This document shows positions 30,698-56,540 of a DNA stretch of 64,000 nucleotides, piece by piece (position 1 is the first letter of the stretch; every line of letters starts with the position of its first letter). Below the pieces are notes generated by a model that saw only the letters and a list, made by a program, of their open reading frames with translations, had not been told where the DNA came from and searched no databases. The DNA is from an uncultured Myxococcales bacterium (GTDB lineage: Bacteria > Myxococcota_A > Polyangia > GCA-2747355 > CAZCFB01), in contig CAZEFW010000015.1 of the NCBI GenBank assembly GCA_964511535.1, forward strand, positions 3,754 to 67,753, in the 5' to 3' direction. The position numbers and the translations under genes were made by a program.

Positions 30698-32203
30698 GTG
30701 GACCGGTTGAGGCGCGCGCTGGCATGGCTGCACCGCCACCTGGTGGCCATCCGCACCCGGCTGCTGCTGATCAACCTGATCATCGTGATGGTGCCGGTGG
30801 TGGGCATCGAGTGGGCGCGCACCTTCGAGCGAGAGGGCCTGCAGGCGCTGGAGCAGGACATGCAGCACCAGGCCCAGCTGCTGCGCACGCTGCTGGAGAA
30901 GAACCTCGACTGGGCCGGGATCCCGCGGTTCGAGCTGGTCTCCCCTGCCCTGGAGGCCATGGCCAAGCGCACCCGCACGCGCATCCGCATCCTCGACCGG
31001 GAGGGGCGGCTGCTGGCGGACTCCCACCGGCGCGGCGCGCCCGAGGGGCCGGAGCCGGCCGTCTCCGGCCTCTGGACCCGGGGCAAGCAGCCCGAGCGGC
31101 GCCACGCGGCCACCAGGCCGTCCACCGATCCCGGGCCGGTGCTCGATCGCGTGGAGGTCCGCGCCGCGCGCAAGGGGCAGCTCGGCACCGCCACCCGCAT
31201 CCACAAGCGCATCGGGCGGGTGTTCCTGTTCCTCACCATGCCGGTGATGGTGGAGCGGCGGGTGCGCGGCATCGTCTACCTCACCCGCTCCACCGTGCCG
31301 GTAATGCAGTCGATGATCCGCCTGCGCCAGCACCTGATCCAGGTGCTGACCGTGGCCCTCTGCGTCACCGCCCTGCTTACGCTCTTTTTGGCCGGCACCA
31401 TCTCGCGCCCCCTCGCCCGGCTGAGCCGCTCGGCCGGCCGTATCAGCTCTGGCGACCGGACCATCAGCCTGCAGCTGCGACGCGCCGACGAGATCGGCCA
31501 GCTGGCGCGCACCTTCGACGATCTGGTGCAGCGCCTGGACGCCCGCGCGCGCTACATCTCGGAGTTCGCGGCGAACATGTCCCACGAGTTCAAGACGCCG
31601 CTGGCCTCCATCCGGGGCGCGGCCGAGCTGCTGGACGACGGGGCCGACGACGACCCGGCGGCGCGCCGGCGCTTCCTGGCCAACATCCAGGAGGACGTGG
31701 CGCGGCTGGACCGGCTGGTCTCGCGCATCCTGGAGCTGAGCCGCATCGAGGCCACCCTGGAGCTGCGCGAGCCGCTGGACCTGGCAGACCTGGTGCTCGA
31801 GGTGGCCGACCGGTTCCCCGACCACCCGGTGGAGGTGGAGCTGCTGCATGACCGCCTGCCCTATAGCGGCAACGGGCCCCACCTCACCGCGGCCATGGCC
31901 GCGCTGGTTGAGAACGCAGTGCGGTTCAGCCCGGACGAGAGTCCGGTGGTGCTGCGCGCCGCCGCCGCGGGAGACGGCGGGGTGGTCATCTCGGTCATCG
32001 ACCGCGGCCCCGGCATCAGCGCGGCGAACCGGGACAAGGTGTTCGAGCGCTTCTTCACCACCGAGAGCAAGCGGGGCGGCACCGGCCTGGGCCTGGCCAT
32101 CGTCACGGCGGTGGTGGGGGCCCACGGCGGGGAGGTGACCCTGCAGAGCGAGCCGGGCGAGGGGACCACCTTCACCATCGAGCTGCCGCCCGCGGCGGCG
32201 TGA
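30698..32203 (+). CDS. Sensor histidine kinase (two TM helices, HAMP, HisKA, HATPase_c)
   Basis: H-box HEFKTPLASIRG; N, G1 and G2 boxes (DRGPGI, GGTGLGL). Confidence 0.9.
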   Translation: MDRLRRALAWLHRHLVAIRTRLLLINLIIVMVPVVGIEWARTFEREGLQALEQDMQHQAQLLRTLLEKNLDWAGIPRFELVSPALEAMAKRTRTRIRILDREGRLLADSHRRGAPEGPEPAVSGLWTRGKQPERRHAATRPSTDPGPVLDRVEVRAARKGQLGTATRIHKRIGRVFLFLTMPVMVERRVRGIVYLTRSTVPVMQSMIRLRQHLIQVLTVALCVTALLTLFLAGTISRPLARLSRSAGRISSGDRTISLQLRRADEIGQLARTFDDLVQRLDARARYISEFAANMSHEFKTPLASIRGAAELLDDGADDDPAARRRFLANIQEDVARLDRLVSRILELSRIEATLELREPLDLADLVLEVADRFPDHPVEVELLHDRLPYSGNGPHLTAAMAALVENAVRFSPDESPVVLRAAAAGDGGVVISVIDRGPGISAANRDKVFERFFTTESKRGGTGLGLAIVTAVVGAHGGEVTLQSEPGEGTTFTIELPPAAA

Positions 32204-33313
32204 TCACAGCCGGGTCAGGAAGAACACCAGGCTGCGCAGCTGCTCGTCGCGCAGCTGCGCGCTGTGGTGGTAGGTGGTGAAGCCTGCTCTGCCCTGCCCT
32301 TGATCCCAGACCACCACGTGGGGCTCGCCGGTCTCCCGATCCGACAGCAGCACCCGGGTGCCTCGCTGCGCCTGCTTCAGCCGGCGCCACCCGCCGAGGT
32401 TGAAGTTGATCTGAACCTCCGAAGTGGGCGCCAGGAACGACGCCATCTCCGGATCGGCGGGCCGCGCCCATCGCCGCTGAACGCCGTGATTGCCCGGCCG
32501 GGGGGTCAACCGTCCGGGCCACGCCTGAAGCAGCTTCGGCAGGGTCAGGTCCGAGAAGTAGAGCGCCCCACCCTGCTGGACGAACCGACGCAGCCGCGTC
32601 ACCTCGGCGTCCTTCAGCGCGCGGGGGTGCCTGCAGTTGATGAAGGCCAGGTCGAACTTCTCACGATCCAGCTCGCCGTACGCGTCGGGGCCGAGCAACT
32701 CGAAGGGCACGCCGAGGCTGGCCAGGATCACCTCCACCCGGTCGAAGCGGCCCCTGAGCACCGCCGTGCGCACGAGGGCCTTTTCCACGCGAAAGACGCG
32801 CCGCTCCACGCCCGCCTCCAGCTCCACCGAGAAGCTGCCGCGGAAGGATCGCACGCGGAATTCGCCCCGGTAGCGCCCCACTGCCAGGCCCGTGATGGCG
32901 AAGCGCCCGCAGCCGTCGGATCGGGCCCGGGCCACCTCCGCGCCGGCCTCCACGCGCAGGACGATCTCGGCCGCCGCCAGGGGCACCTGGCTCAGCGGCA
33001 GCTTCAGCCGCCCCTGCAGGGTGGCCTCCCCCCGGCCCGCCACCACCACCGCCTCGCCGGTCAGCGGGCCCTGGCAGTGAGCGCGCTCTGCCTCACGGGC
33101 GTCGAGCCGGCCGCGCAGCTTCTTGACCAGCCGGGCCATCAGCGCGGTCCCCTCGGGCCCCCTGGCCCGCTCCAGCAGGGCCTCGAGCCGGCCACGCTTT
33201 GTCTTTTTCAGGGCTGGCTCGGCAGGTGGCGCCGCACCGGAGCACGCCCCCAGCGTCACCAGGAGAAACGCCAGGGCCGAGCAGACGCCGCCGCGCCTCA
33301 CAGCCCCGGGCAT
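32204..33313 (-). CDS. Lipoprotein with a carboxypeptidase-regulatory-like beta-sandwich segment and a GATase1/ThuA-like C-terminal domain
   Basis: Signal peptide plus lipobox (LVTLGAC) from MPGAV; GCGRFAITGLAVGRY motif; C-terminus (ILASLGVPF...FINCRH...GGALYFSD) is related to family A. Confidence 0.5.
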   Translation of the reverse strand: MPGAVRRGGVCSALAFLLVTLGACSGAAPPAEPALKKTKRGRLEALLERARGPEGTALMARLVKKLRGRLDAREAERAHCQGPLTGEAVVVAGRGEATLQGRLKLPLSQVPLAAAEIVLRVEAGAEVARARSDGCGRFAITGLAVGRYRGEFRVRSFRGSFSVELEAGVERRVFRVEKALVRTAVLRGRFDRVEVILASLGVPFELLGPDAYGELDREKFDLAFINCRHPRALKDAEVTRLRRFVQQGGALYFSDLTLPKLLQAWPGRLTPRPGNHGVQRRWARPADPEMASFLAPTSEVQINFNLGGWRRLKQAQRGTRVLLSDRETGEPHVVVWDQGQGRAGFTTYHHSAQLRDEQLRSLVFFLTRL

Positions 33314-34359
33314 CGCCGACGATCGCGCTGGCGCAGCAGCAGCACCGCCTCGGGGGCCACGGCGAACCATCGGGCGCCAGGCAGCGTGATCCGCAGCCAC
33401 CCCTCGCCGCCGCCGTTGTGGGCCCGCACCCGGGCCCCCTGCCGCACCACCCCGACGCGCGCGGTCTTGCCCCCGGCGCGGGCGTAGAGCTTGAGGTCCA
33501 CCGGGCAGGCCACGGCGCCGTCCGAGATCGGCTCGCTGGAGGCAGGCTCCCCGATGCCCACCGGCGTCTGCTCGCCGCCCTTGCGGCGCAGGGCGCGCGC
33601 GTTGACCCAGCCCACGATGTCCAGGTTCCAGGCGGGGGTCAGGATCTTCATCCGTCCCTTCTTCAGCTTGATGAAGTACATCTGCCGACCGGAGTCCGCG
33701 TCGAAGAATGGGTCCTTGATGGCAGGCGGCAGGAAGATCCGCGGCCCGCCCCCCGGCTCCGCGGACACGGGCACCTCCTCCTTCAGCCGAACCCAGCGCA
33801 TCTCGGCGTGCCGCTTGACCCCGTGGGTCTTGCGGAACCTGGCGCCCGCCCCCTCCTCGAGCCCCACGTCAGCGCACATCACCATGGCGCTGGTTCGCGG
33901 GTTGACGGCCCGGTAGGACCGGTGCAGCTCGGGGAAGCCCACCTTGACCCTCCCCTTTTTGCCGCCCAGCCATCGCAGCCTGGTGCGCTGGTGAGCATGC
34001 AGCACCTCGCTGACCCTGATGGGGCGCTGAGGATAGAGCAGGTCCCGGCTCTCCACCCCCCCGTTGAGCACCACCCCGCCATGCTCCAGCTTCACCCGGG
34101 GCGGCACAGCCTCGTTCTCGGGCAGCTCCACCCGCGCCTCCAGCGCTGCCCAGAGGCGGAGCCGCACGAACCGCGGTGAGGTCCCGTCCGGGGTCGGGCT
34201 CTGGGCCTCGCGCACGCTCCAGGTCTTGGTGCGGTAGGTGCAAGCGATGGCCCCCTTCTTCTCAACGGGCAGAAACAGCGCGGGGCCGTGGGCATGCTCG
34301 GCCAGCGCCGGAGCGGGGAGCAGCAAAACAAGCGAGGCTATGAGGCTAAGACGGCTCAT
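33298..34359 (-). CDS. Secreted hypothetical protein (start MSRLSLIAS...)
   Basis: Signal peptide; consistent codon usage. Confidence 0.5.
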   Translation of the reverse strand: MSRLSLIASLVLLLPAPALAEHAHGPALFLPVEKKGAIACTYRTKTWSVREAQSPTPDGTSPRFVRLRLWAALEARVELPENEAVPPRVKLEHGGVVLNGGVESRDLLYPQRPIRVSEVLHAHQRTRLRWLGGKKGRVKVGFPELHRSYRAVNPRTSAMVMCADVGLEEGAGARFRKTHGVKRHAEMRWVRLKEEVPVSAEPGGGPRIFLPPAIKDPFFDADSGRQMYFIKLKKGRMKILTPAWNLDIVGWVNARALRRKGGEQTPVGIGEPASSEPISDGAVACPVDLKLYARAGGKTARVGVVRQGARVRAHNGGGEGWLRITLPGARWFAVAPEAVLLLRQRDRRRCPGL

Positions 34360-34420
34360 ACGAGCACCAATGCCTAAGATCCTACACCAAGGTTGGCCTG
34401 GACGCCCAAAAGTGGCCGGG

Positions 34421-34476
34421 CAACAGTCGACCGTTAGTAGTCGACAGTTCACAGTCGACAGTTGACACCCAACAGC
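34421..34476. repeat. Repeat family 2 (GTCGACAGTT-type: CAACAGTCGACCGTTAGTAGTCGACAGTTCACAGTCGACAGTTGACA)
   Basis: Related copies at 46541..46573 and in the inverted pair 47909..47938 / 48009..48040. Confidence 0.7.
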
Positions 34477-34791: not shown

Positions 34792-36609
34792 CTACGGCGG
34801 GTAGGCGCCGCCGCACTTCTTCCACCACCAGCTCACCATGGGCAGCTTGAGCGAAGTGGGGAAGACATGGTGGCCGCCCTTGAACTCGGTGTAGGTCACG
34901 TCGTAGCCGGCGGTCTTGAGGTTCTTGGAGATGGCCCGTGCGTTGGCCACGGGCAGGATCTTGTCCGCGTCGCCGTGGGTGATCCAGAACGGCGGCTTGT
35001 GGCCGGCCAGCGCCTTTTTGCCCATGCCGCCCGGCGAGTTGGGCATGGCCGCGCAGAACGACTTGTGGTTCAGGCCCATGTACAGCGTCATGGATCCGCC
35101 GTCGCTGAAGCCCTCCACCGCCACCCTGTTGCCCGCCACGTTGTAGCGCCCCTTGAGCCAGCTGAGCGCCTTGATGATGGGCGCCTCCTCGTCCACCGGG
35201 TTGCTCGGCGACGGGTAGAACACCGCCGAAAGATCCCATGACTTCTTCATGGACGATGGGGCCAGCACGATGAAGCCGGTCTCCTCGGCCAGGGTCTTCC
35301 AGACGTTGACCATCCAGATCCCCTGCTCATAGGCGCCGTGCAGCGCCACCAGCACCGGCGTCGGCCGGTGGGCGTCGTAGGAGGTGGGGATGATGTACTT
35401 GCCCTGGATGCCCACGGTGGCCGACGGCAGGTCGAAGATGCCGCCCGACATGTTGCCCGCCTTGCCCGAGGGCAATCCCCCCTTCTCCGGCGCCGGCGCG
35501 CCGATGGCCTTGAACCCGGACGGCACCGCCACGTTGAGGTTGCTGCCCGAGGCCGCCACCTTGAGCGCGGTCGTCCCCCCGCCGTGGGTGGCGTGGCAGG
35601 TCACCCCGTTGGGCTTGGTGTAGCTGCTGCCGCCGATGTCCACGTAGAAGCGCACCTTGTCCCCGGGCCGGGCCAGGCCGAGGTGCGGGAACAGCCGCCC
35701 CTTGCCGATCTGCGCCGACAGGCGGCAGCTGTAGATGGCGTCGCCCTTCTTCTTGTCCCCCTTGAGCCCCTCGTCGTTGCACAGCAGCGGCGCCCAGTGG
35801 GTGGCCGTGGAGCGGATCACCACCGCCTGATACCCCGGGTCCACCTTCTTGCCCGACAGGTACTTGTTGTCCACGGTCCACAGCAGGTCCACGCCGGCGC
35901 GCGGCGGCAGCTTGTGGCCGGGCATGTTCACCGTGCCGCCGCCCGGCTTGATGGTCACCTTGGCGTTTCCCGACGAGGGCCACATCCATCCGGCTGGCGA
36001 GATCAGGCCGTACTGATAGGTGGTGGTGGAGCCGGGCTGGGCGTAGACCACGGTGCCGAGCTTGTGGTCCCACGCCTTGGATCCGGGGCCCTCCCGGCCG
36101 CCCGGCCCGTCGTCCCACAGCGGTACGAAGGGCCCGCTCCACTTGCTGTCGGGCGAGATGACGTTGGTCTTGGGGTTGTACTTGAAGTTCCCCTTGAGCA
36201 GCAGCTCACCGCCGGAGTAGGTCTTGTCGATGCTGTCGTCCACGCTGATCCGCAGGATCACCGCGCCGGGCGGGGGCGGCGGCAGCTTGGCCGACACCTG
36301 GCCGTCCTTCTTGGGCGTCGCCTTGTCGGGCTGGGGCTGGCCCTTGTCCTTCTTGGGCCCCACCGGACCGTCCTTCTTCGGGTTGACCGGCCCGTCCTTC
36401 TTCGGGTTGACCGGTCCGTCCTTCTTCGGGTTGACCGGTCCATCCTTCTTCGGGCCGACCTTGCCGTCCTTCTTCGGGCCTACCTTGCTGTCCTTGCCCG
36501 GGCCCAGGTCCGCCCCGGTGCCCACATCCACGCCCTCGAAGCCATCGTCGCTGCAGCCGGCCAGGGCCAGGAGCAGGGACATGGCCGCGGCCATGCTCGT
36601 TCTGTTCAT
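34792..36609 (-). CDS. Lipoprotein with (KKDGPVNP)n repeats and a C-terminal alpha/beta-hydrolase domain (esterase/PHB-depolymerase-like)
   Basis: Lipobox LALAGC; GxSxG-type nucleophile elbow GFSDGGSM; VLVALHGAYEQG block; 24-bp tandem DNA repeats at about 36363..36460. Confidence 0.6.
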   Translation of the reverse strand: MNRTSMAAAMSLLLALAGCSDDGFEGVDVGTGADLGPGKDSKVGPKKDGKVGPKKDGPVNPKKDGPVNPKKDGPVNPKKDGPVGPKKDKGQPQPDKATPKKDGQVSAKLPPPPPGAVILRISVDDSIDKTYSGGELLLKGNFKYNPKTNVISPDSKWSGPFVPLWDDGPGGREGPGSKAWDHKLGTVVYAQPGSTTTYQYGLISPAGWMWPSSGNAKVTIKPGGGTVNMPGHKLPPRAGVDLLWTVDNKYLSGKKVDPGYQAVVIRSTATHWAPLLCNDEGLKGDKKKGDAIYSCRLSAQIGKGRLFPHLGLARPGDKVRFYVDIGGSSYTKPNGVTCHATHGGGTTALKVAASGSNLNVAVPSGFKAIGAPAPEKGGLPSGKAGNMSGGIFDLPSATVGIQGKYIIPTSYDAHRPTPVLVALHGAYEQGIWMVNVWKTLAEETGFIVLAPSSMKKSWDLSAVFYPSPSNPVDEEAPIIKALSWLKGRYNVAGNRVAVEGFSDGGSMTLYMGLNHKSFCAAMPNSPGGMGKKALAGHKPPFWITHGDADKILPVANARAISKNLKTAGYDVTYTEFKGGHHVFPTSLKLPMVSWWWKKCGGAYPP

Positions 36610-36657: not shown

Positions 36658-39225
36658 TTACCGCTTGTAGTTCTGCCGTCCCTTGTAGCCGCCGCCCCGC
36701 TGGCCCTTGGCGTTCCAGCCGGACTTGTTCTTCACCACCTTCAGGTGAGGCCGCCCCTGGACCACCTGCTTCTTGTGAAACTTGGTGGTCTTCTTGGCCT
36801 TCGCCTTGCGCACCCGCGGCGCCTTGAGCTTGTGGGTGTGGAGCGCCGCGGTGCCCGACTTCTGGATCGCCCGCTGCAGAGCGCGCTGGTGGCGCGGCGT
36901 GCGGGGTTTGGTGGTCTTCTTGGTGGTGGCGGTCTTCTTCTTGCCCCTGGAGGCCTGCCGCGAGCGCTCGTTGTTGAACAGCGCCTTGCTCACCGCGCGC
37001 AGGGAGTTGGACTTGAGCGCCCCGCGGCTACCGCCGCGCCGCCGCGCCTCCACGGAGAGGGCCACCTGCACGTCGCTGCTGTCGAGCACCGACTGGATCC
37101 CCTTGCCGTAGTTGCGCCCGCCGTTGTTGAGCCACTTCTTGTTGCGGCCGGTGGCGTCGAAGAACGCGGCCCGGATCTTCTTGATCGGCGCCTCGCCCAG
37201 CGGGATGTCATAGGTCGCCTCCGCCCCGTTTACCGAGGAGGGGCTGTAGTCCTTCCAGCTGTCGCCGCCCAGGTTCAGGTGGAGCTTGTAGTTCTTGCCG
37301 GTGCGCAGGCCCAGCGGGTCGCCCTTGACCGTGACCCGCACCATGTCCTTGGTGCCGTTGGAGAGCTGCTGGATGGTGACGCCGTCCTCCTTGTGCTTGC
37401 TCAGCACCAGGTAGCCGTCCCGGGTCTTGGGCGCCCGACCGCCCAGCACCATGTCCGCGGTGTGCACCGCCGAGCCCGGGCCGAGCACGTTGTTCTTGCG
37501 CATGAAGGCGTTGAGGTCGGCGCGCACCTGGTTCAGGGGCTCGCCGCCCTTGACCCGGTCGGTGACGCTGATGGAGTAGTCGCGCAGGTCCTGGCGCACC
37601 AGAGAGACGGCGTGGCGGTTGCGGTGCCCTGCCCGCTCCTTCATCAGCTTGATGCGCCCGCGCGCCTCGGCGGCGCCCAGCTTGCCCACCACCGGCTTGA
37701 TCACCTTGTCGTAGGCCTCCACCAGCATCTTGGCGCGGTTGGTGTCCGTGGTGTCCAGCTTGGCCCCCGGGCGCATGGCCCTGGCCACCGCGTCCACCCG
37801 CTGCGCCATGGTCATGGTGCCCAGCTTCGTCTCCGGCAGCTTGTTCAGCGCGGCGAACATGTCGTAGCGCGCCGGGTTCTCCACCTGGGTGCTCTTGCCC
37901 ATCTTGTGCTTCTTGCCCTGCTCCACGATGTTGCCCATGGTGGTGAAGGCCGTCATGAAGGTCTTGGCCGCGCCGCGGTCCTTGTTCATGGCCTTCTTGG
38001 CCTCGGCCTTGGACATGCCCGCGTGCAGCAGGGTGTTCTGGGTGAAGCGGCGCTCCAGCATGCCGTCGGCGATCTTGTCCGGGCGCAGCTTCTTGAGCTC
38101 CTTCTGCTCCGCCGGTGTGGCGGACTTCATCATCAGGTTGTACAGCTCGGTCTTGACGTAGCGGTCCATGACGAACTTGGGCTCGCCGCCGTAGCCGATC
38201 CACTTGGAGAAGAAGGAGTAGTTCTTGTGGGTCCGGTCCACGGTGGAGCCGGTGCCGTGGTCCATGTTCTCCATCAGGCCGATGTTGTCGTAGGTGGTGG
38301 AGCCGTGCACCGTGCGCAGGAAGAACATGTCGGCCATCTCGTTGGCCTTGCGCTGGGTCAGCGTCTTGTACAGGCCGGGGATGGACATCTTGCGGCTGCG
38401 GCCCATCTCCATGCTCACCTGGGTGTTGGCGAAGTCCACCAGCTGGCGCAGGGCCTTCTTGTCGTTGCGCACCAGGTTCCAGTGGGCCAGGCGGGTGAAG
38501 TTGCCGCCACGGATCAGCAGGCCGGCGCGCTCGCGCCCGCCGTTGGGGTGGACGATGTCGCTGCCGCTGTCGATGACCGCCAGCCACTTGTTGGTCTTTA
38601 TGCCGTTGCGGGAGAGGTAGTCGGAGAACAGCGCGTCCTCGGTGGCCTGGCGCAGCGACTCCTTGCCGTGGCGGTGGCCGAAGCCTTTCCAGTTGGGGTG
38701 CAGCCCGGTGCCAACGCCCTTGACCTGGATGTCGTACACGCCGGTGATGTTGCCCTTGCGATCCTTGATCACCACCTCGCCCGTGAGCGCGGCGCGGCCG
38801 TCGCCCTTGACGCCCTTTTCGCCGCCGCGGGCGTCCGCGTAGCGCGTGGCCAGGCCCATGTGGGTGTGCTTACCGGCCTTGATCTCGGCCTCGGTGGCCG
38901 GGCGGAAGGCGAAGTTGTTGACCACGCCCTTCTCGAGGTTGTGGTCATGGCGGCTGCCGGGGGAGGTCCGGAAGCCCAGCCTCTTGAGCTCGCGATGGTT
39001 GGCCATCACCACCCGCGCGCCCTCCTCGCGTACCAGCGGGACCTCCTTGACCATGGTCTTGCGGACCTGGTTATCGAAGGCCCTGCCAAAGCTGCTGCCG
39101 CCAGAGAAGCGGGCCAGCTGACCGGGCTCCTGGGCGTGGGCGGCTGAGAGGCTCAGGGCGAGCACGCCGGCCATCAGCGCGGTGGCCAGCTGCTTCAGGA
39201 TATGATTTCGGCGGTTCAATCTCAT
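36658..39225 (-). CDS. Secreted SelO/YdiU (UPF0061)-like pseudokinase-fold protein with a long Lys-rich C-terminal extension (about 855 aa)
   Basis: Signal peptide (start MRLNRR, with GGAG RBS). Blocks match SelO/YdiU conserved motifs: GDGRAALTGE, DIQVKGVGTG, ERAGLLIRGGNFTRLAHWN, HGSTTYDNIGLMENMDHGTGSTVD (cf. E. coli YdiU GDGRGILLGE / DWHLKGAGLTP / GAMLMRVAPSHLRFGHFE / [25 protein letters not shown]). Lower GC than neighbours. Confidence 0.6.
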   Translation of the reverse strand: MRLNRRNHILKQLATALMAGVLALSLSAAHAQEPGQLARFSGGSSFGRAFDNQVRKTMVKEVPLVREEGARVVMANHRELKRLGFRTSPGSRHDHNLEKGVVNNFAFRPATEAEIKAGKHTHMGLATRYADARGGEKGVKGDGRAALTGEVVIKDRKGNITGVYDIQVKGVGTGLHPNWKGFGHRHGKESLRQATEDALFSDYLSRNGIKTNKWLAVIDSGSDIVHPNGGRERAGLLIRGGNFTRLAHWNLVRNDKKALRQLVDFANTQVSMEMGRSRKMSIPGLYKTLTQRKANEMADMFFLRTVHGSTTYDNIGLMENMDHGTGSTVDRTHKNYSFFSKWIGYGGEPKFVMDRYVKTELYNLMMKSATPAEQKELKKLRPDKIADGMLERRFTQNTLLHAGMSKAEAKKAMNKDRGAAKTFMTAFTTMGNIVEQGKKHKMGKSTQVENPARYDMFAALNKLPETKLGTMTMAQRVDAVARAMRPGAKLDTTDTNRAKMLVEAYDKVIKPVVGKLGAAEARGRIKLMKERAGHRNRHAVSLVRQDLRDYSISVTDRVKGGEPLNQVRADLNAFMRKNNVLGPGSAVHTADMVLGGRAPKTRDGYLVLSKHKEDGVTIQQLSNGTKDMVRVTVKGDPLGLRTGKNYKLHLNLGGDSWKDYSPSSVNGAEATYDIPLGEAPIKKIRAAFFDATGRNKKWLNNGGRNYGKGIQSVLDSSDVQVALSVEARRRGGSRGALKSNSLRAVSKALFNNERSRQASRGKKKTATTKKTTKPRTPRHQRALQRAIQKSGTAALHTHKLKAPRVRKAKAKKTTKFHKKQVVQGRPHLKVVKNKSGWNAKGQRGGGYKGRQNYKR

Positions 39226-39392
39226 GTCACGCAATCTCCAGCACCTCTTTATAGCAACAGAGGTGCCAGATCGTAAAATCAAAAATTACGCTTACTTGAA
39301 AGATCGGGCTGGGGTGAGATGACCCTGGCGGTGGTACCCCGGGTGGCCACCTGGGGGCCGGATCCCTCAAATGCCCCATGCTCTCGGGGTGT

Positions 39393-40490
39393 TTACTCAA
39401 TAATTTCGTAAGTATGAATCAGGCCCTTGCCGCGCCGGATCAGGGCGAAGGTGAGCTTCTTCGCCCCTCGGAGTTTGGAGTACACCCGCAGCGCCCGGTC
39501 GGGGCTGGCAATGGACATCCCGTTGACAGCGGTGATGGTATCGCCGTTGCGCAGCCCCAGAACGGCGTAAATACTGCCCGGACGGATGGCGTACAGCTTG
39601 AACCCGATGGGCTTGCCATCGCGGACGGTCGGGACGATTCGCGCGCTCCGCGCCAGCTTGCTGGGATCCCCGAGCAGGTTGTCCAACAGCTCTCGCTGGA
39701 TGGTCCAGTGGCCATCTCCGACCTTGCTGACGAGCCGGGTTGCCCAGTCCGCAGGGAGCGGCTTCGGGCGGCGCGGAGGAAAGGGATCCTCACTGGGATC
39801 CGGCGGATCGGGCGGCGCGGTCTCCTTGCGGATCATCCCGCTCATTCGTCGAAGCGGCCCCTGGATCGTGAACAGGTAGCTGCCGTCATCCTGCTGCTTG
39901 TTGGCGTAGGTGGCGTAGAAGATCTTCAGCGCGACGCTCTTTTCCAGCAGGGCCTTGCCCAGGCGTACGCGGATCCGCGCCGAAACCACGGACGCTTCAA
40001 TGGGATGTCGGAGGCGCACGGAACCCGATACCTTGAGCGTGATGTCCCCCTTCTCTGCAGTGAGCGACTCCAGCGCCAGGTTGCCGTTTCCAAGGGTGAT
40101 CCGGGCGCGCACCTGACCCAGATCGATGTCCGGCAGGGTCATGCTGGCCCACACCGGGTGTCCACGTGCGGAGAGCTGCGAGGCCGGGATGCGGCACCCC
40201 TTGCAGGTCAGCTCCAGGGCGCCGGTGGCCTGGCTGATGTTCTCGCCGGGGGGCAGAAGGATCTCCCCGGTGGCGGTCACCTCGCCCTCCAGGGGCACTC
40301 CCAACACAGATCTTGCCATCTCTGCAGGAACTCTCATTTTTCGCCCGGTGAAGCTGAGCCGTAGCCCATCCGGCGGTGCTGGTTTTACGCATGGACGCGG
40401 GGAGGGGGGCGGTTTTGGCGGCGGGGTGGCGCTGCAGGCGCACAGGGCGAAGAGAGTCGGGATCAGGCAGTGGATCGGTTTCATGCGCAC
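39393..40490 (-). CDS. Lipoprotein with C-terminal PDZ domain (T2SS GspC/GspN-like architecture)
   Basis: Lipobox LFALCAC, Pro-rich linker, C-terminal PDZ-like segment (GFKLYAIRPGSIYAVLGLRNGDTITAVNGMSI). Confidence 0.45.
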   Translation of the reverse strand: MRMKPIHCLIPTLFALCACSATPPPKPPPSPRPCVKPAPPDGLRLSFTGRKMRVPAEMARSVLGVPLEGEVTATGEILLPPGENISQATGALELTCKGCRIPASQLSARGHPVWASMTLPDIDLGQVRARITLGNGNLALESLTAEKGDITLKVSGSVRLRHPIEASVVSARIRVRLGKALLEKSVALKIFYATYANKQQDDGSYLFTIQGPLRRMSGMIRKETAPPDPPDPSEDPFPPRRPKPLPADWATRLVSKVGDGHWTIQRELLDNLLGDPSKLARSARIVPTVRDGKPIGFKLYAIRPGSIYAVLGLRNGDTITAVNGMSIASPDRALRVYSKLRGAKKLTFALIRRGKGLIHTYEIIE

Positions 40491-40658: not shown

Positions 40659-41597
40659 ATGCTGACCCGCTGCTCGCCTCTACTCGTTGCTCTGCTGACC
40701 CCACTGACGCTGGCCTGTACTGACATTGACCGCGCCATCAATCAGGATCCCTCCCCTGGAGCCTGCGACCTGGAGCGACGGCTGGGCGAGCCCCCCCGCG
40801 CCATCAAGCAGGTCAAGCTTCAGGGCGTCTTCAACGCCTCGGGCATGGTGCTCGACCGGCACGCAGAGCAGCGCGTGGTGACCGGCTCGGACTGGGTCAT
40901 GGGCAATCCGCTGCCCGGCCTGCTCGAGGGCACGGTCCCGCCATCACTGGTGGTCTCCGCTGCCGCGAGCGGCAAGATGATCGAGGGCCGTTCAGCTGCC
41001 AAGACGGTGTTTGAACTCGAGGGACTCTCCTGGAAAGGTTCCGAGATCGCTGCGCTTTATCAAGAAGGTGGCAAAGCCTTCATTCAGGTCGGGAGCACCC
41101 GGACAGATCTGGATACCGACGCGGCCGGCGCGGCCACGGGCAAGCACTCCCTGCGCCTGTTCGAGGGCCTGGCCCACAATTCCGGGCACTGGGTGGTGCT
41201 GATGACCATCAGCCGTCAAGCAGCCGGGGGCGATCCCCATCCGCACCAGATGGAGATGTACCTGGCGTCCTTCAAGGATGGCTCGGGAGCGCTGGCAGGG
41301 GTGAAGGGACCGGTGCAGACCTCAAACGGCGAGATCATCAGGGAGCTGGGCGGCGACCTGCTGAGGCTGCCGAGCGGCAAATTTCTCATCCCGGGGTTCA
41401 ACTCCAGGGGGCTTAAGGTCGTGTCGCCCGACGGCACGGTGCTGAAGCAGGTGGATCTGGACACCCGTCGGGTGGAGGGCATCGCCTTCGACAAAAAGCG
41501 CTGTGATTTGCTGCTGGTACGCGAATGTGCCGGCCCTGGAGACTTGTGCAACGAGCCTCCTACCCTCGGTACGCCCCTCTGGATCATGAGCTATTGA
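40659..41597 (+). CDS. Lipoprotein, hypothetical; tandem paralog 1
   Basis: Lipobox LTLAC; shares VFNASGMVLDR..., GLAH(N/T)...WVVLMTISRQA..., EMY..., RELGGDLLRL..., ...GTPLW(I/V) blocks with the next gene. Confidence 0.55.
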   Translation: MLTRCSPLLVALLTPLTLACTDIDRAINQDPSPGACDLERRLGEPPRAIKQVKLQGVFNASGMVLDRHAEQRVVTGSDWVMGNPLPGLLEGTVPPSLVVSAAASGKMIEGRSAAKTVFELEGLSWKGSEIAALYQEGGKAFIQVGSTRTDLDTDAAGAATGKHSLRLFEGLAHNSGHWVVLMTISRQAAGGDPHPHQMEMYLASFKDGSGALAGVKGPVQTSNGEIIRELGGDLLRLPSGKFLIPGFNSRGLKVVSPDGTVLKQVDLDTRRVEGIAFDKKRCDLLLVRECAGPGDLCNEPPTLGTPLWIMSY

Positions 41598-41704: not shown

Positions 41705-42667
41705 ATGTATACGCTGAATAGCAGGGATTTCAGGATCGCCAGTTGCTTGCTGGGGCTGAGCCTCGTGGCAGCGTGCGGGGACCCGGAGCCGGATGTCCAG
41801 GGTACGCGGCAGGGCATGGACAGCTGCAACCTGACGCAGCTGATGCAGAAAGGCCCCGCCTCCCTGGACCGGGTCACCCTGAATCGGGTATTCAACGCCT
41901 CCGGCATGGTGCTCGACCGCAAGGGCCCGACTCGCCAGGTGATCACCGGGGCGGACTGGCGCGAGGGCGATCCCCTGCCCGTCAACTGGAAGGAGTCTGA
42001 AAAACCGAGCCTGCTCACGACCTCTTCGGCGGACAGCGGGCTGTTCATCGACGCACCGGTCCTGCCTGCGCCCAAGTATTCGGAGCTCGAGGCCCTCACA
42101 TGGGCCGGATCCAGGCTCTCGGCTCTGTTCCAGAAGGGAGGCAACGTGACTGTGGGGGACACCGAGCGCCAGGTCATCCTGGACACGCCTGCCGCCGAGG
42201 CGCGGGTGGGTAAGCATCGCTACCCAATTTACGAGGGGCTGGCCCACACCGACGGCACCTGGTACGTGCTGATGACCATCAGCCGCCAGGCCAAGGCGGG
42301 CGACCAGGTGCGGGACAAGATGGAGATGTACATCGTCACCTTTCGGGAGGAAACCGGCGGGCTGATGGACGTGCAAGGCCCGGTGCGGCACAGGGACGGC
42401 CGCATCGTGCGTGAGCTCGGCGGCGACCTTCTGCGGCTGGACGACGGCAACTACATCATCCCCGGCTTCTACGACGAGGGCCTGCTGCTGGTGGACCGCT
42501 CCGGGCAGGTGATCACCCACGTACAGATGAAGGTCAACCGCGTGGAGGGGATCGACCTGGACCGCGACGCCTGCGAGCTGCTGCTGGCCCGCGAGTGCCA
42601 CGGTACGGGTCACACCTGCACCGAGCCCACCGTCACCGGCACGCCCCTGTGGGTGGCCGGGTTCTGA
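41705..42667 (+). CDS. Lipoprotein, hypothetical; tandem paralog 2
   Basis: Lipobox LVAAC; paralog of 40659..41597. Confidence 0.55.
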   Translation: MYTLNSRDFRIASCLLGLSLVAACGDPEPDVQGTRQGMDSCNLTQLMQKGPASLDRVTLNRVFNASGMVLDRKGPTRQVITGADWREGDPLPVNWKESEKPSLLTTSSADSGLFIDAPVLPAPKYSELEALTWAGSRLSALFQKGGNVTVGDTERQVILDTPAAEARVGKHRYPIYEGLAHTDGTWYVLMTISRQAKAGDQVRDKMEMYIVTFREETGGLMDVQGPVRHRDGRIVRELGGDLLRLDDGNYIIPGFYDEGLLLVDRSGQVITHVQMKVNRVEGIDLDRDACELLLARECHGTGHTCTEPTVTGTPLWVAGF

Positions 42668-54140: not shown

Positions 54141-56540
54141 ATGGCTCAGAGGATCAAGACTGTCGCCGTGCTCGGCTCCGGCGTGATGGGAAGCGGAATA
54201 GCGGCCCATCTTGCCGGCGTCGGCCTGAAGACCCTGCTGCTGGACATCGTTCCGCCCGAGTTCACCGAGGCGGACCAGAAGAAGGGCCTCACCCAGGATG
54301 ACCCTGCCTTCAGGAACAAGTTCGCCTTAAGCAACATCGCGGCGGCCAAGAAGTCCAAGCCGCCGGTCTTCTACAACACCGAGGACGCCGAGTTCATCCA
54401 CGCCGGCAACTTCGACGACGACCTGGACAAGATCGCCGAGTGCGACTGGATCGTCGAGGCCATCATCGAGCGGCTGGACATCAAGCAGCAGCTGTTCGCA
54501 AAGCTCGACGCCATCCGCAAGCCGGGCTCCCTGATCACGTCCAACACCAGCGGGCTGTCCATCAAGGGTATGTGCGAGGGGCGCACCGACGACTTCCGCC
54601 AGAACTTCTTCGTGACCCACTTCTTCAACCCGGTGCGCTTCATGCGCCTGCTGGAGCTGGTGGCTGGCGAGGAGACCAACCTCGACGCCATGCACAGCTT
54701 CGCCCAGTTCGGCGCCGACGTGCTGGGCAAGGGCATCGTCTACGGCAAGGACACGCCCAACTTCATCGCCAACCGCATCGGCACCTACGGCATGATGTAC
54801 CTGCTCAACGCCATGGTGGAGCAGGACTTCACCATCGGCGAGATCGACGCCCTGTTCGGCCCGGCGTCGGGGCGTCCCAAGAGCGCCGTGTTCCGCACCG
54901 CCGATCTGGTGGGCCTCGACACCCTCGCTCACGTGGCGCAGAACTGCTACGACAGCCTCACCGAGGACGAGTGCCGCGACACCTTCAAGATGCCGCAGTT
55001 CGTGCTCGACATGATCGACAAGGGGATGCTCGGCTCCAAGACCAAGGGCGGCTTCTACAAGAAGATCGACGGCAAGATCTGCGCCCTCGACTGGAAGACC
55101 GGCGAGTACGCGCCCAAGGAGAAGGTCCGGGCCGACTCCATCGGCGCCGCCCGCGGCGTGGAGGACGTGGGCAAGCGCATCAAGACCCTGGTCAACGGCA
55201 CCGACCGGTTCGCCCAGCTGGCCTGGGAGTGCACGGCCCAGACCCTGATCTACTCCGCCAACAGGCTGGGTGAGATCGCCGACGACGTGGTCAACTGCGA
55301 CCGCGCCATGCGCTGGGGCTTCGCCTGGGATCTCGGGCCGTTCCAGACCTGGGACGCCATCGGCGTGGCCGAGAGCTGCGAGCGCATGGCCAAGGACGGC
55401 TACGAGGTGCCCAAGCTGGTCACCGAGATGCTGGACAAGGGCGTGACCTCTTTTTATGGCGGCACCGCGGTCAAGCCGCTGTACTACGACGTGGTCAAGA
55501 AGGAGGAGGTGCCCAAGCCAGTGGACGCGCGCCTCATCACCCTGGCCGCGCTCAAGGAGCAGGACAAGGTGCTGGAGCAGAACGCTGGCGCCACCATGTA
55601 CGACATGGGCGACGGTGTCCTGCTGCTGGAGTTCCACACCAAGATGAACGCGGTGGACGATGACATCATCGCGATGATCCACAAGACCATCGACAAGGCC
55701 GAGGATGAGGGCTGGAACGGCGTGGTCATCGGCAACGAGGGCAAGGACGCCTTCAGCGCCGGCGCCAACATCTTCGCCGTGATGATGGCGATCCAGATGG
55801 GCCAGTGGGACCAGCTGGAGCAGATGATCAACAGCTTCCAGCAGTCCACCCTGCGCCTGCGTCAGTCGGACATCCCGGTGGTCACCGCGCCTGCGGGCCT
55901 GGCCCTGGGTGGCGGCGCCGAGATCGTCATGGGCGCCGACCGCGTGCGCGCCTTCGCCGAGCTGTACATGGGCCTGGTGGAGCTGGGCGTGGGCCTCATC
56001 CCGGCCGGCGGCGGCTGCCTCGAGCTGCTGGAGCGCTTCATGGAAGGCGCGCCGGACGACCCGAGCTTCAACCCGCTGCCGCTGATCCAGGGCGCGTTCA
56101 TGAACATCGGCATGGCCAAGGTGTGCGTGGGCGCCGAGGAGGGGCGCAAGTTCGGCATGCTGCGGCCGCATGATCAGATCACCCTCAACAAGGACCGGCT
56201 GTTCCACGACGCCAAGGAGACGGCGCTCGGCATGGCGCGGGCAGGTTACCGCCAGCCGCGGCCGGCCAAGTTCCGCCTGCCCGGCGAGAACGGCGCCACG
56301 GCGATCCGCTGGTTCCTCGACGGCATGATGCGCGGCGGGCAGATCACCGAGCACGAGTACCTGATGGCCGGCAAGCTGGCCCGGGTGCTGTGCGGCGGCG
56401 ACACGTCCTGCCGTGTCAAGGTTGGTCAGCAGCACATCCTCGACCTGGAGCGTGAGACGTTCCTGTCGCTGTGCGGCGAGACCAAGAGTCAGGAGCGGAT
56501 CCAGCACATGCTGACCAAGAACAAGCCGCTGCGTAACTAG
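54141..56540 (+). CDS. Bifunctional 3-hydroxyacyl-CoA dehydrogenase (N-terminal) / enoyl-CoA hydratase (C-terminal), FadN-type domain order
   Basis: AAGGAGAG RBS; NAD-binding motif VAVLGSGVMGSGIAAHLA; C-terminal crotonase-fold region. Confidence 0.9.
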   Translation: MAQRIKTVAVLGSGVMGSGIAAHLAGVGLKTLLLDIVPPEFTEADQKKGLTQDDPAFRNKFALSNIAAAKKSKPPVFYNTEDAEFIHAGNFDDDLDKIAECDWIVEAIIERLDIKQQLFAKLDAIRKPGSLITSNTSGLSIKGMCEGRTDDFRQNFFVTHFFNPVRFMRLLELVAGEETNLDAMHSFAQFGADVLGKGIVYGKDTPNFIANRIGTYGMMYLLNAMVEQDFTIGEIDALFGPASGRPKSAVFRTADLVGLDTLAHVAQNCYDSLTEDECRDTFKMPQFVLDMIDKGMLGSKTKGGFYKKIDGKICALDWKTGEYAPKEKVRADSIGAARGVEDVGKRIKTLVNGTDRFAQLAWECTAQTLIYSANRLGEIADDVVNCDRAMRWGFAWDLGPFQTWDAIGVAESCERMAKDGYEVPKLVTEMLDKGVTSFYGGTAVKPLYYDVVKKEEVPKPVDARLITLAALKEQDKVLEQNAGATMYDMGDGVLLLEFHTKMNAVDDDIIAMIHKTIDKAEDEGWNGVVIGNEGKDAFSAGANIFAVMMAIQMGQWDQLEQMINSFQQSTLRLRQSDIPVVTAPAGLALGGGAEIVMGADRVRAFAELYMGLVELGVGLIPAGGGCLELLERFMEGAPDDPSFNPLPLIQGAFMNIGMAKVCVGAEEGRKFGMLRPHDQITLNKDRLFHDAKETALGMARAGYRQPRPAKFRLPGENGATAIRWFLDGMMRGGQITEHEYLMAGKLARVLCGGDTSCRVKVGQQHILDLERETFLSLCGETKSQERIQHMLTKNKPLRN

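What the first reader, a model, noticed from the sequence alone, without database searches (positions are those of the whole stretch)
36658..39225. Secreted, double-length, divergent SelO/YdiU-like (AMPylase-fold) protein in a lower-GC island
The central about 350 aa reproduce the SelO/YdiU signature blocks (GDGRAALTGE; DIQVKGVGTG...; ...AGLLIRGGNFTRLAHWN; HGSTTYDNIGLMENMDHGTGSTVD), including the lysine and DN/D residues used for inverted ATP binding and AMP transfer. Unlike cytoplasmic YdiU it has a Sec-type signal peptide and about 400 additional Lys-rich C-terminal residues, and its GC content is lower than its neighbours. An exported AMPylating or UMPylating enzyme could be an effector or toxin, or an extracellular protein-modifying enzyme. 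The GspC/N-like PDZ lipoprotein lies immediately upstream on the same strand.
Basis: partly seen in the sequence, partly recalled or inferred. Interest (0 to 1): 0.7.

Follow-up and report, generated by a model that had tools for sequence, protein, structure and literature searches.

The report
Exported, supercharged SelO-type AMPylase homologue
This gene encodes a very divergent relative of the protein-AMPylating enzyme SelO/YdiU that keeps the phosphate-, metal-binding and proposed catalytic residues but, unlike all studied SelO enzymes, carries a secretion signal, a sugar-binding-like domain and a very positively charged tail, so it probably works outside the cytoplasm, where ATP is not normally available.

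Summary
Window 36658-39225 (minus strand) is one 855-aa ORF, and all four quoted motifs are present.

**What it is**
- Every phosphate-, metal-binding and proposed catalytic residue of E. coli YdiU has an identical or conservative counterpart.
- A Sec-type signal peptide is present. A crude test finds one in 19 of 25 homologues.

- SelO homology covers about aa 45-590, not 350 aa.
- The true additions are about 265 aa: an Ig/CBM-like beta-sandwich, a helical hairpin and a disordered tail of net charge +32. The whole protein has pI 10.6, net charge +89 and no cysteine.
- The "low-GC island" is a composition effect. GC3 is 0.96 and Lys uses AAG 85 times against AAA 2.
- The upstream gene is GspN/GspC-like, but it is an orphan and is kept only in the nearest relative.

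**Context**
- The conserved partner is a downstream lipoprotein esterase, present in 5 of 6 close-clade loci.
- Related signal-peptide-bearing SelO-likes occur in Bdellovibrio, Bacteriovoracaceae and Planctomycetota.

**Verdict:** a new exported variant of a known enzyme kind. Activity, substrate and nucleotide source are inferred, not shown.

The parts
36658..39225 (-). Whole gene, 855-aa exported SelO-like protein (stop codon at 36658-36660)
   Evidence: ORF list. An identical protein, P0001, occurs on metagenome contigs of up to 118 kb. Pfam SelO scores above its gathering cut-off.
39236..39239 (-). GGAG ribosome-binding site, 10 nt upstream of the ATG at 39225
   Evidence: Read directly from the sequence. 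It supports the ATG start rather than the TTG at 39282.
39133..39225 (-). Sec-type signal peptide, aa 1-31 (MRLNRRNHILKQ-LATALMAGVLALSLSAA-HA|QE)
   Evidence: It has a positively charged n-region, a hydrophobic core (mean Kyte-Doolittle over 12 aa of 2.3) and an AXA site. An equivalent peptide is seen in 19 of 25 homologues despite sequence divergence. AF2 pLDDT is below 50 here. No dedicated predictor was available.
38191..39093 (-). Kinase-like catalytic core of the SelO fold, aa 45-345
38794..38805 (-). GDGR motif (G141-R144). R144 corresponds to YdiU Arg87, a phosphate ligand.
   Evidence: Alignments. The role of Arg87 is taken from the YdiU structure paper 10.1101/692707. G, D and G are invariant in family alignment A1.
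38662..38721 (-). K169 (equivalent to YdiU Lys107) and the base-fixing loop K169-K188. The loop is 5 aa longer than in YdiU, and His186 replaces the base-contacting Asp119.
   Evidence: K169 and G187 are invariant in A1, while position 186 varies (H/T/N/D).
38491..38511 (-). R239 and R245, equivalent to YdiU Arg170 and Arg177, which hold the beta/gamma phosphates of the flipped ATP
   Evidence: R245 is invariant. R239 is replaced by L or E only in the most distant clade.
38254..38307 (-). Catalytic motif HGSTTYDNIGLMENMDHG. D313 corresponds to YdiU Asp246 (proposed general base), N314 to Asn247 and D322 to Asp256 (metal ligands). T311 replaces Asn244.
   Evidence: D313, N314 and D322 are invariant in A1.
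37456..38190 (-). Helical C-terminal half of the SelO fold, aa 346-590, diverged beyond Pfam's reach
37081..37440 (-). Beta-sandwich domain, aa 596-715, Ig/CBM-like, with a conserved W-x-N-x-G-x-x-[FY]-G motif
36946..37080 (-). Conserved helical hairpin, aa 716-760
   Evidence: AF2 helices 717-729 and 740-759. It is conserved in A1 (L723, A727, R734).
36661..36945 (-). Disordered polycationic tail, aa 761-855, net charge +32
   Evidence: pLDDT is below 50. Sequence is poorly conserved, but the charge is conserved (+14 to +35) throughout the close clade P0001-P0011.
34792..36609 (-). Co-transcribed partner: a 605-aa lipoprotein with a PKKDG-repeat linker, a middle domain of unknown fold and a C-terminal alpha/beta-hydrolase (PHA-depolymerase-family esterase with a GFSDG serine motif)
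   Evidence: Pfam and NCBIfam hits. The gap is 48 bp, with no terminator-like site on the minus strand. Orthologues (51-52% identity) lie directly downstream in L003, L006, L011 and L013.
39393..40490 (-). Upstream GspN/GspC-like PDZ lipoprotein. It is a neighbour that is probably not functionally tied to the SelO-like gene.
   Evidence: NF041515 GspC_delta scores 160.5 bits (cut-off 150) and TIGR04411 GspN scores 87.5 bits (cut-off 50). It is conserved upstream only in L011. No other T2SS genes are in the window.

Best explanation
The gene encodes a catalytically competent SelO/YdiU-type nucleotidyltransferase that is exported by the Sec pathway and works outside the producer's cytoplasm, in the periplasm, at the cell surface or in the extracellular matrix.

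Shown:
- The complete SelO fold is present.
- The residues that hold ATP in the flipped orientation are identical or conservatively replaced: R144, K169, D197, R239 and R245.
- The two metal ligands (N314, D322) and the proposed general base (D313) are also in place.

Inferred mechanism:
- It transfers AMP, or another NMP, from an NTP to hydroxyl (or His) side chains of protein substrates, as SelO and YdiU do.
- Base preference may differ, because the base-fixing loop is 5 aa longer and Asp119 is replaced by His.

Inferred localisation and partner:
- The added C-terminal modules are localisation devices. They are an Ig/CBM-like beta-sandwich and a +32 disordered tail, and the catalytic body is itself supercharged.
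- These modules would hold the enzyme on anionic or glycan polymers such as LPS, exopolysaccharide, peptidoglycan or eDNA. This parallels the LGFP cell-wall repeats carried by distant family members.
- It is made together with a membrane-anchored esterase lipoprotein, which probably acts on the same envelope or matrix substrate.
- The nucleotide donor must come from outside the cytoplasm, for example nucleotides released from lysed cells in a predatory or biofilm setting. This is the weakest link in the explanation.
For: SelO homology and fold:
- Pfam PF02696 scores above its gathering cut-off.
- The family profile hits YdiU and SelO in the PDB.
- hhalign gives 99.9%, E 3.9e-31 over 407 columns.
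- Foldseek finds only SelO/YdiU as strong hits, with TM 0.66-0.71 normalised by target.
- The AF2 model has pLDDT 83 and pTM 0.82.

Active site:
- YdiU R87, K107, R170, R177, D246, N247 and D256 map to identical residues, and E130 maps to Asp197.
- Their roles come from the YdiU structure paper.
- They are invariant or nearly so across the 24-member family.

Export:
- The signal peptide has n-h-c architecture with an AXA site and sits directly before the conserved start of the fold.
- It is present in 19 of 25 homologues and in 69 of 118 longer relatives by a crude test.
- The protein has no cysteine.
- Neighbouring genes are lipoproteins.

Localisation modules:
- The sandwich's best structural matches are CBM48- and CBM56-type modules.
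- The charge pattern is conserved in the close clade.
- LGFP repeats are present in P0017, P0022-24 and P0030.

Partner:
- An esterase lipoprotein is directly downstream in 5 of 6 close-clade loci.
- A different CBM26-esterase lies next to the gene in L014.
Against: - No activity, substrate or localisation has been measured.
- The periplasm and extracellular space are not known to hold usable ATP or UTP.
- The signal peptide was judged only by hydrophobicity, charge and AXA rules, not by a trained predictor.
- Five or six distant family members lack a recognisable signal peptide.
- The base-contacting Asp119 and the AMP-phosphate ligand Asn244 of YdiU are not conserved (His186, Thr311), so the donor may not be ATP or UTP.
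- The esterase link is lost outside the close clade.
Confidence: 0.5

Rival explanations
1. It is a predation or competition toxin. The protein is secreted (through the T2SS, outer-membrane vesicles or lysis). The polycationic surface and tail bind the anionic envelope of other bacteria. The SelO domain then AMPylates or UMPylates essential proteins inside the target, using the target's own ATP.
For: - The family sits in Myxococcota: P0016 and L010 are Myxococcales MAGs, and myxo-specific domains occur in neighbours.
- Related signal-peptide-bearing SelO-likes are named from Bdellovibrio and Bacteriovoracaceae, both obligate predators.
- This reading solves the ATP-source problem.
- The extreme positive charge (net +89) is conserved in the close clade.
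- A GspN/C-like gene lies upstream.
Against: - No known delivery or translocation domain was found, and no small immunity-like gene lies next to it.
- The gene has fully native codon usage and a housekeeping chromosomal context.
- Family members also occur in Planctomycetota and in LGFP-bearing lineages that are not known predators.
- No mechanism for crossing a target's inner membrane is evident.
Confidence: 0.25
2. The fold is the same but the chemistry differs. The enzyme would not modify proteins. It would hydrolyse or transfer from extracellular nucleotides or dinucleotides (NAD+, FAD, ApnA, for nucleotide scavenging), or adenylylate a carboxylate or glycan on an envelope polymer or secreted peptide, as the SelO-related MchC branch and the structurally similar NIS synthetases do.
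For: - SelO was reported in 2026 to hydrolyse NAD+ to NMN and AMP, and YdiU-NAD structures exist.
- MchC, a divergent SelO, acts in microcin maturation (PMC3281104).
- The base-fixing loop is altered.
- A CBM-like domain and an esterase partner hint at a polymer substrate.
Against: - The reported NADase activity depends on the C-terminal Sec/Cys tail. This protein has no cysteine and no such tail.
- Every residue that positions the beta/gamma phosphates of a nucleoside triphosphate is kept.
- There are no microcin, siderophore or polysaccharide-synthesis genes nearby.
Confidence: 0.15
3. The N-terminal hydrophobic segment is not a cleaved signal. The protein would be cytoplasmic or inner-membrane-anchored, and its basic tail would bind nucleic acid, making it a nucleoid- or ribosome-associated SelO.
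For: - The tail resembles histone-H1-like K/T/P-rich tails.
- No trained signal-peptide predictor was run.
- A few family members lack the hydrophobic N-terminus.
Against: - The n-h-c pattern with an AXA site recurs in most homologues although the sequence itself is not conserved.
- Cysteine is absent.
- Some relatives carry LGFP cell-wall repeats.
- The operon partner is a lipoprotein.
Confidence: 0.05
4. It is a non-catalytic binding protein: a true pseudoenzyme that uses the SelO scaffold and nucleotide pocket only as a structural or ligand-sensing module on the cell surface.
For: - There is no ATP where the protein is predicted to reside.
- In the wider exported superfamily, the residue equivalent to the proposed general base (D313) is often Gly or Ser.
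Against: In this clade all phosphate-binding, metal-binding and proposed catalytic residues are invariant over sequences down to 27% identity. That pattern is the signature of selection for catalysis.
Confidence: 0.05

Closest known systems
SelO / YdiU (Pfam PF02696, UPF0061): P. syringae SelO (PDB 6EAC), E. coli YdiU (6K20, 6III, 6LNA)
   Same: - It has the GDGR motif, the Lys / alphaC-acid pair and the two Arg that hold the flipped ATP's beta/gamma phosphates.
- It has the D-N...D catalytic and metal motif.
- It probably carries out the same NMP-transfer chemistry.
   Different: - Sequence identity is only about 15%. It fails the NCBIfam YdiU and SelO cut-offs by a wide margin (48.9 against 431 bits; 32.7 against 850 bits).
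- It has an N-terminal Sec signal peptide, whereas known SelO enzymes are cytoplasmic, mitochondrial or plastidial.
- It has no Cys/Sec redox tail and no cysteine at all.
- The base-fixing loop is 5 aa longer, with Asp119 replaced by His, and Asn244 is replaced by Thr.
- About 120 aa of insertions lie within the fold.
- It has about 265 aa of added beta-sandwich, hairpin and polycationic tail.
- It has pI 10.6 and net charge +89.
Signal-peptide-bearing SelO-like proteins of about 560-780 aa in Bdellovibrionota (e.g. WP_413582737.1 from Bdellovibrio sp. HCB288; MCK5073107.1 from Bacteriovoracaceae), annotated only as 'SelO/YdiU family protein'
   Same: They are exported SelO-fold proteins that match the family profile over the kinase core and the helical half. 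This shows that export of SelO-like enzymes is a recurrent theme and not an annotation accident.
   Different: - They lack the beta-sandwich and the basic tail.
- Many have Gly or Ser at the position of the proposed general base.
- They come from low-GC lineages.
- I found no study of them.
MchC/MceJ branch of the SelO family (microcin H47/E492 maturation)
   Same: It is a divergent SelO-fold enzyme tied to a secreted product (PMC3281104).
   Different: - MchC is itself cytoplasmic and sits in a microcin/siderophore gene cluster.
- No such genes are present here.
- Similarity to MchC was not tested directly.
CBM56 and CBM48-type glucan-binding beta-sandwich modules (PDB 5T7A, 7QUZ, 6A6C; isoamylase N-terminal domain in 9LFN)
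   Different: - There is no sequence similarity.
- No ligand is known.
Exported nucleotide-dependent enzymes such as periplasmic ATP-dependent DNA ligase Lig E, or secreted Fic AMPylators (from my own knowledge, not tested here)
   Same: They raise the same paradox of an ATP-using enzyme carrying a Sec signal. Secreted AMPylators act on another cell's proteins.
   Different: They have unrelated folds. The comparison is by analogy only.

Membership tests
SelO/YdiU (Pfam PF02696) | Significant match to the family HMM | tested here: met
   PF02696 scores 38.8 bits against a gathering cut-off of 22.8, E 6e-10, but only over aa 101-330, which is profile positions 49-269 of 466. hhalign against a canonical SelO alignment gives 99.9%, E 3.9e-31, 407 columns.
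SelO/YdiU (NCBIfam YdiU subfamily NF000658; SelO equivalog NF045949) | Score above the curated cut-off for orthologue-level naming | tested here: not met
   It scores 48.9 against 431 bits and 32.7 against 850 bits. It is a distant paralogous branch, not an orthologue of YdiU.
SelO/YdiU | SelO pseudokinase fold, including the C-terminal helical half | tested here: met
   [not shown]
SelO/YdiU | Residues for flipped-ATP binding and catalysis (YdiU R87, K107, E130, R170, R177, D246, N247, D256) | tested here: met
   They map to R144, K169, D197, R239, R245, D313, N314 and D322. Their roles come from 10.1101/692707. They are invariant or nearly invariant in A1.
SelO/YdiU | Base-fixing loop with Asp119/Gly120, and Asn244 | tested here: not met
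   The loop is 20 aa instead of 15. Asp119 becomes His186, a variable position in the family. Gly120 is kept as G187. Asn244 becomes Thr311.
SelO/YdiU | C-terminal Cys/Sec redox tail (CxxC/U). It is common but not universal, and is required for the reported NADase activity. | tested here: not met
   The protein has no cysteine, and the canonical C-terminus is replaced by other domains.
SelO/YdiU | Intracellular location (cytoplasm, mitochondrion or plastid), with no secretion signal | tested here: not met
   A Sec-type signal peptide occupies aa 1-31 and is conserved as a feature in 19 of 25 homologues. This was a rule-based test only.
SelO/YdiU | Protein AMPylation or UMPylation activity | not testable with these tools
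   This needs in vitro assays with labelled NTPs.
Carbohydrate-binding module (CBM56/CBM48-like) | Beta-sandwich fold similar to characterised CBMs | tested here: inconclusive
   [not shown]
Carbohydrate-binding module (CBM56/CBM48-like) | Sequence match to a CBM family model | tested here: not met
   There are no Pfam hits at E up to 10 for 16 family members of the domain, and no PDB sequence hits.
Type II secretion substrate | Sec/Tat signal plus association with a T2SS | tested here: inconclusive
   The signal peptide is present. An orphan GspN/GspC-like gene lies upstream. No GspD, E, F or G was found in the 64-kb window, and the neighbour is absent in L003, L006 and L012; L013 begins 143 nt upstream of the gene, so it cannot be scored.
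Polymorphic toxin / secreted effector | Recognisable delivery domain, or an adjacent immunity gene | tested here: not met
   There are no such Pfam or NCBIfam domains in the protein or its neighbours. The conserved neighbour is a 560-605-aa esterase with an intact GxSxG motif, which does not resemble an immunity protein.

The most novel reading that the evidence does not exclude
Myxococcota and Bdellovibrionota (the named examples), and at least some Planctomycetota, deploy a previously unstudied class of Sec-exported SelO-type nucleotidyltransferases that catalyse protein AMPylation or UMPylation outside the producer's cytoplasm. They would act on the cell envelope or matrix, or in or on prey cells. 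In the myxobacterial clade the enzyme is supercharged (net +89), is tethered by a CBM-like domain and a polycationic tail, and is paired with a lipoprotein esterase. This would be the first extracytoplasmic activity for the SelO family. It would also be a new type of bacterial extracellular post-translational modification or predation weapon.
Probability: 0.3. Interest if true: 0.8.

Novelty: new variant of a known kind. Interest (0 to 1): 0.6.

Why it matters
All characterised SelO/YdiU enzymes act inside cells, in the bacterial cytoplasm or in mitochondria. There they AMPylate or UMPylate redox and chaperone proteins, or hydrolyse NAD+.

A conserved family has the full catalytic apparatus and also a secretion signal, surface-binding modules and no cysteine. 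This implies that the chemistry is also used outside the cytoplasm, a compartment generally regarded as lacking ATP.

If the enzyme is active there, it would raise three questions:
- where the nucleotide donor comes from;
- whether extracellular or envelope proteins are nucleotidylylated;
- whether predatory bacteria use AMPylation against prey.

It also shows that Pfam sees only about 230 aa of a SelO domain of roughly 545 aa in such divergent members, so domain architectures inferred from Pfam alone are misleading.

Tried and rejected
- phmmer of the single protein against PDB sequences found nothing. A family profile was needed.
- The genome-contig scan with the 24-sequence alignment failed because it had no conserved stretch. 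The 12-sequence alignment found only one locus, a Myxococcales MAG. The taxonomic picture therefore rests on a few named proteins and on myxo-specific domains in neighbours.
- Foldseek against AFDB50 was not available.
- Pfam and PDB sequence searches of the beta-sandwich gave only noise.
- The 'low-GC foreign island' idea was rejected. GC3 is 0.963, Lys uses AAG 85 times against AAA 2, and other 2-kb bins of the window are equally low.
- The T2SS-operon idea was rejected. There are no other gsp genes in 64 kb and the neighbour is poorly conserved.
- The NADase reading was weakened by the absence of the required C-terminal Cys/Sec.
- The toxin-immunity pair idea has no support from neighbours.
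- Literature searches for exported, secreted or periplasmic SelO, for SelO in Bdellovibrio or Myxococcus, and for 'SelO-like' families found no description of such proteins. The library does not cover most subscription journals, so this is absence of evidence only.
- The promoter/terminator scan was uninformative, apart from showing no minus-strand terminator between the two genes.


Full report
**1. The observation**

The window carries one long ORF on the minus strand, 36658-39282 from a TTG. All four quoted motifs are in the translation. An identical protein (P0001) exists in public metagenome assemblies on contigs of up to 118 kb.

**2. Is it SelO?**

Yes, and far beyond chance.
- Pfam PF02696 scores 38.8 bits (gathering cut-off 22.8, E 6e-10), but only over aa 101-330.
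- The NCBIfam YdiU and SelO models hit at 48.9 and 32.7 bits, far below their orthologue-level cut-offs of 431 and 850.
- The single sequence finds nothing in PDB sequences. A profile of 24 homologues (A1) finds E. coli YdiU (E 1.6e-8) and P. syringae SelO.
- Profile-profile comparison with six canonical SelO-like sequences gives probability 99.9%, E 3.9e-31. It aligns target aa 58-512 with canonical positions 29-454 of 493.
- An AlphaFold2 model built on A1 is confident (pLDDT 83.4, pTM 0.82; aa 45-760 mostly above 85).
- In Foldseek, SelO and YdiU entries are the only strong hits (E about 1e-14, TM 0.66-0.71 normalised by target).

The SelO fold therefore spans about aa 45-590. Pfam simply cannot see its helical C-terminal half.

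**3. Active site**

I used the HMMER alignments and the roles assigned in the YdiU structure paper (10.1101/692707).

| YdiU residue | Role | Target residue |
|---|---|---|
| Arg87 | phosphate ligand | R144 |
| Lys107 | phosphate ligand | K169 |
| Glu130 | alphaC acid | D197 |
| Arg170 | beta/gamma phosphate | R239 |
| Arg177 | beta/gamma phosphate | R245 |
| Asp246 | proposed general base | D313 |
| Asn247 | metal ligand | N314 |
| Asp256 | metal ligand; D256A is inactive | D322 |

- These residues are invariant or nearly so across a family that diverges to 27% identity.
- Not conserved: the base-fixing loop is 20 aa rather than 15, the base-contacting Asp119 is His186 (a variable position), and Asn244 is Thr311.
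- The phosphate, metal and catalytic machinery is thus under selection, while nucleotide-base preference may differ.

**4. What is added to SelO**

- **Signal peptide.** Aa 1-31 form a classic n-h-c signal peptide ending AHA|QE. By a crude hydrophobicity/charge/AXA test, an equivalent peptide is present in 19 of 25 first-round homologues and in 69 of 118 longer relatives, although its sequence is not conserved. No trained predictor was available.
- **Beta-sandwich.** Aa 596-715 fold as a beta-sandwich.
  - Generic Ig/FnIII folds follow closely, and there is no sequence-level support.
- **Hairpin and tail.** Aa 716-760 are a conserved helical hairpin. Aa 761-855 are a disordered tail of net charge +32.
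- **Charge.** The whole protein has pI 10.6, net charge +89 and no cysteine. The supercharge is shared by the close clade P0001-P0011 (body +33 to +56, tail +14 to +35). Distant clades are nearly neutral.
- **LGFP repeats.** Four first-round family members (P0017, P0022-P0024) carry C-terminal LGFP repeats. P0030 has only a sub-threshold N-terminal LGFP match.
- **Missing redox tail.** The canonical Cys/Sec tail of SelO is absent. That tail is reported to be essential for the newly described NADase activity and dispensable for AMPylation (PMC13391479).

**5.

- The 'about 400 extra residues' are really about 265.
- The 'lower-GC island' does not hold.
  - The gene's GC is 0.666 against a window mean of 0.686.
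  - Its GC3 is 0.963, the highest among its neighbours, and Lys is encoded AAG 85 times against AAA 2.
  - The dip is caused by 10% Lys in a 69%-GC genome, and several other 2-kb bins are equally low.
- The upstream protein (39393-40490) has only sub-threshold PDZ hits in Pfam. NCBIfam, however, places it above cut-off in GspC_delta (160.5 against 150 bits, aa 222-363) and GspN (87.5 against 50 bits, aa 56-216). The 'GspC/N-like' label is therefore right.
  - It is an orphan: no other T2SS component occurs in the 64-kb window.
  - It is kept next to the SelO-like gene only in the nearest relative (L011, 52% identity).
  - It is absent in L003, L006 and L012. L013 begins 143 nt upstream of the gene and cannot be scored.

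**6. Conserved context**

- The gene immediately downstream (34792-36609) follows after a 48-bp gap with no minus-strand terminator-like site.
- It encodes a 605-aa lipoprotein with these parts:
  - a PKKDG-repeat linker, encoded by 24-nt tandem repeats at 36346-36495;
  - a middle domain of unknown fold;
  - a C-terminal alpha/beta-hydrolase of the extracellular PHA-depolymerase/esterase type with a GFSDG motif.
- Orthologues at 51-52% identity sit directly downstream of the SelO-like gene in L003, L006, L011 and L013. Counting the window, that is 5 of 6 close-clade loci.
- In L012 an IS110 transposase follows instead.
- More distant relatives share no context. In L014, however, a different CBM26 + esterase + Big_2 gene lies 0.8 kb away.

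**7. Family size and distribution**

- The word-indexed search found only 25 proteins, nearly all from metagenomes.
- The exhaustive profile search found 60 representatives at E <= 1e-30, 242 at E <= 1e-10 and 1148 at E <= 1e-3.
- About 35 representatives are full-length, with the sandwich.
- A second tier of proteins of about 560-780 aa matches only the SelO part. These hit Pfam SelO over up to positions 8-445 of 466, and most carry signal peptides.
- Named examples are a Bdellovibrio sp. protein, a Bacteriovoracaceae MAG protein, a 1407-aa Planctomycetota protein and a 'Deltaproteobacteria' YdiU-family protein.
- In this second tier the proposed general base is often Gly or Ser.
- A pattern scan of one genome for each of 185,579 GTDB species found a single locus, a Myxococcales MAG.
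- Neighbour genes carry MYXO-CTERM-like and AgmX/PglI-type domains. The window itself has typical myxobacterial content, such as a Ser/Thr kinase with a PEGA domain.

**8. Interpretation**

Shown:
- It is a complete SelO fold with an intact NTP-binding and catalytic apparatus.
- It has a signal-peptide-like N-terminus, conserved as a feature across the family.
- It has added beta-sandwich and polycationic modules.
- It has a conserved esterase-lipoprotein partner.
- Its codon usage is native.

Inferred:
- The protein is exported and transfers an NMP to substrates outside the cytoplasm.
- The sandwich and the charge localise it on glycan or anionic polymers.
- The esterase works on the same target.

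Open problem:
- The main difficulty is the nucleotide source.
- The toxin or predation reading uses the target cell's ATP and solves that problem. It also fits the Myxococcota and Bdellovibrionota distribution. However, no delivery domain or immunity gene supports it.
- Alternative chemistry (dinucleotide hydrolysis, or adenylylation of non-protein substrates) is possible. The reported SelO NADase mechanism needs a Cys/Sec tail that is absent here.

**9. Novelty**

- Automatic pipelines already label some members 'SelO/YdiU family protein', so the fold assignment is not new.
- In the searchable literature I found no description of exported SelO-like proteins or of this architecture.
- I rate it a new variant of a known kind, of moderate to high interest. 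The interest comes mainly from the ATP-outside-the-cytoplasm paradox and the possible link to predation.

Noticed in passing
window 39393-40490 (-): This is an orphan lipoprotein that looks like a GspN-GspC fusion. NCBIfam GspN matches aa 56-216 and GspC_delta with a PDZ matches aa 222-363, both above cut-off. No other T2SS gene occurs anywhere in the 64-kb window. Its GC3 (0.80) is lower than that of its neighbours.
   Followed up: partly
window 40659-41597 (+) and 41705-42667 (+): These are two tandem paralogous lipoproteins (47% identity, 6 Cys each) with no Pfam or NCBIfam match. They are transcribed divergently from the GspN/C-like gene. The first has a lower GC3 (0.79).
   Followed up: partly
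window 36346-36495 (within the esterase gene, - strand): There are about six tandem 24-nt repeats encoding a PKKDGPVN/PKKDGKVG linker just after the lipobox of the esterase. The linker is Lys-rich, like the SelO-like protein (10% K in both, against 2-5% in neighbours).
   Followed up: partly
proteins P0060-P0168, e.g. P0074 (Bdellovibrio sp. HCB288, WP_413582737.1) and P0080 (Bacteriovoracaceae MAG): This is a larger second tier of signal-peptide-bearing SelO-like proteins of about 560-780 aa. They share a conserved mature N-terminus (SNGxHSFRxLGxxFYVxVPV). In many, Gly or Ser replaces the proposed general-base Asp, while the Asn and Asp metal ligands are kept.
   Followed up: partly
L014 2342-4219 (-), next to the P0016 SelO-like gene: A 625-aa CBM26 + Esterase + Big_2 protein lies 0.8 kb from a distant family member. 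This is a second, non-orthologous esterase association.
   Followed up: no
L003 5966-7867 (+), upstream of the P0007 SelO-like gene: A 633-aa purple-acid-phosphatase-like metallophosphatase sits immediately upstream of a close family member. It could be relevant to extracellular nucleotide or phosphate metabolism, or it could be coincidental.
   Followed up: no
window 54141-56540 (+) and 56570-57733 (+): This is a FadB-like (3-hydroxyacyl-CoA dehydrogenase + enoyl-CoA hydratase) and FadA-like thiolase pair, about 15 kb from the SelO-like gene. A 2026 report says YdiU binds FadA/FadB. At this distance, and with an exported protein, the proximity is probably coincidental.
   Followed up: no
window 33298-34452 (-) and 32204-33400 (-), then 30698-32203 (+): Downstream of the esterase lie two exported proteins without a family match (one has a weak CarboxypepD_reg hit), followed by a HAMP histidine kinase and response regulator pair. 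The same order recurs in the nearest relative L011, so local synteny extends beyond the two-gene core.
   Followed up: partly
P0017, P0022-P0025: P0017 and P0022-P0025 have no recognisable Sec signal peptide (four of them, all but P0025, carry C-terminal LGFP repeats), and they have 2-7 cysteines. They may use another export route (Tat or type VII), or their starts may be mis-called.
   Followed up: no
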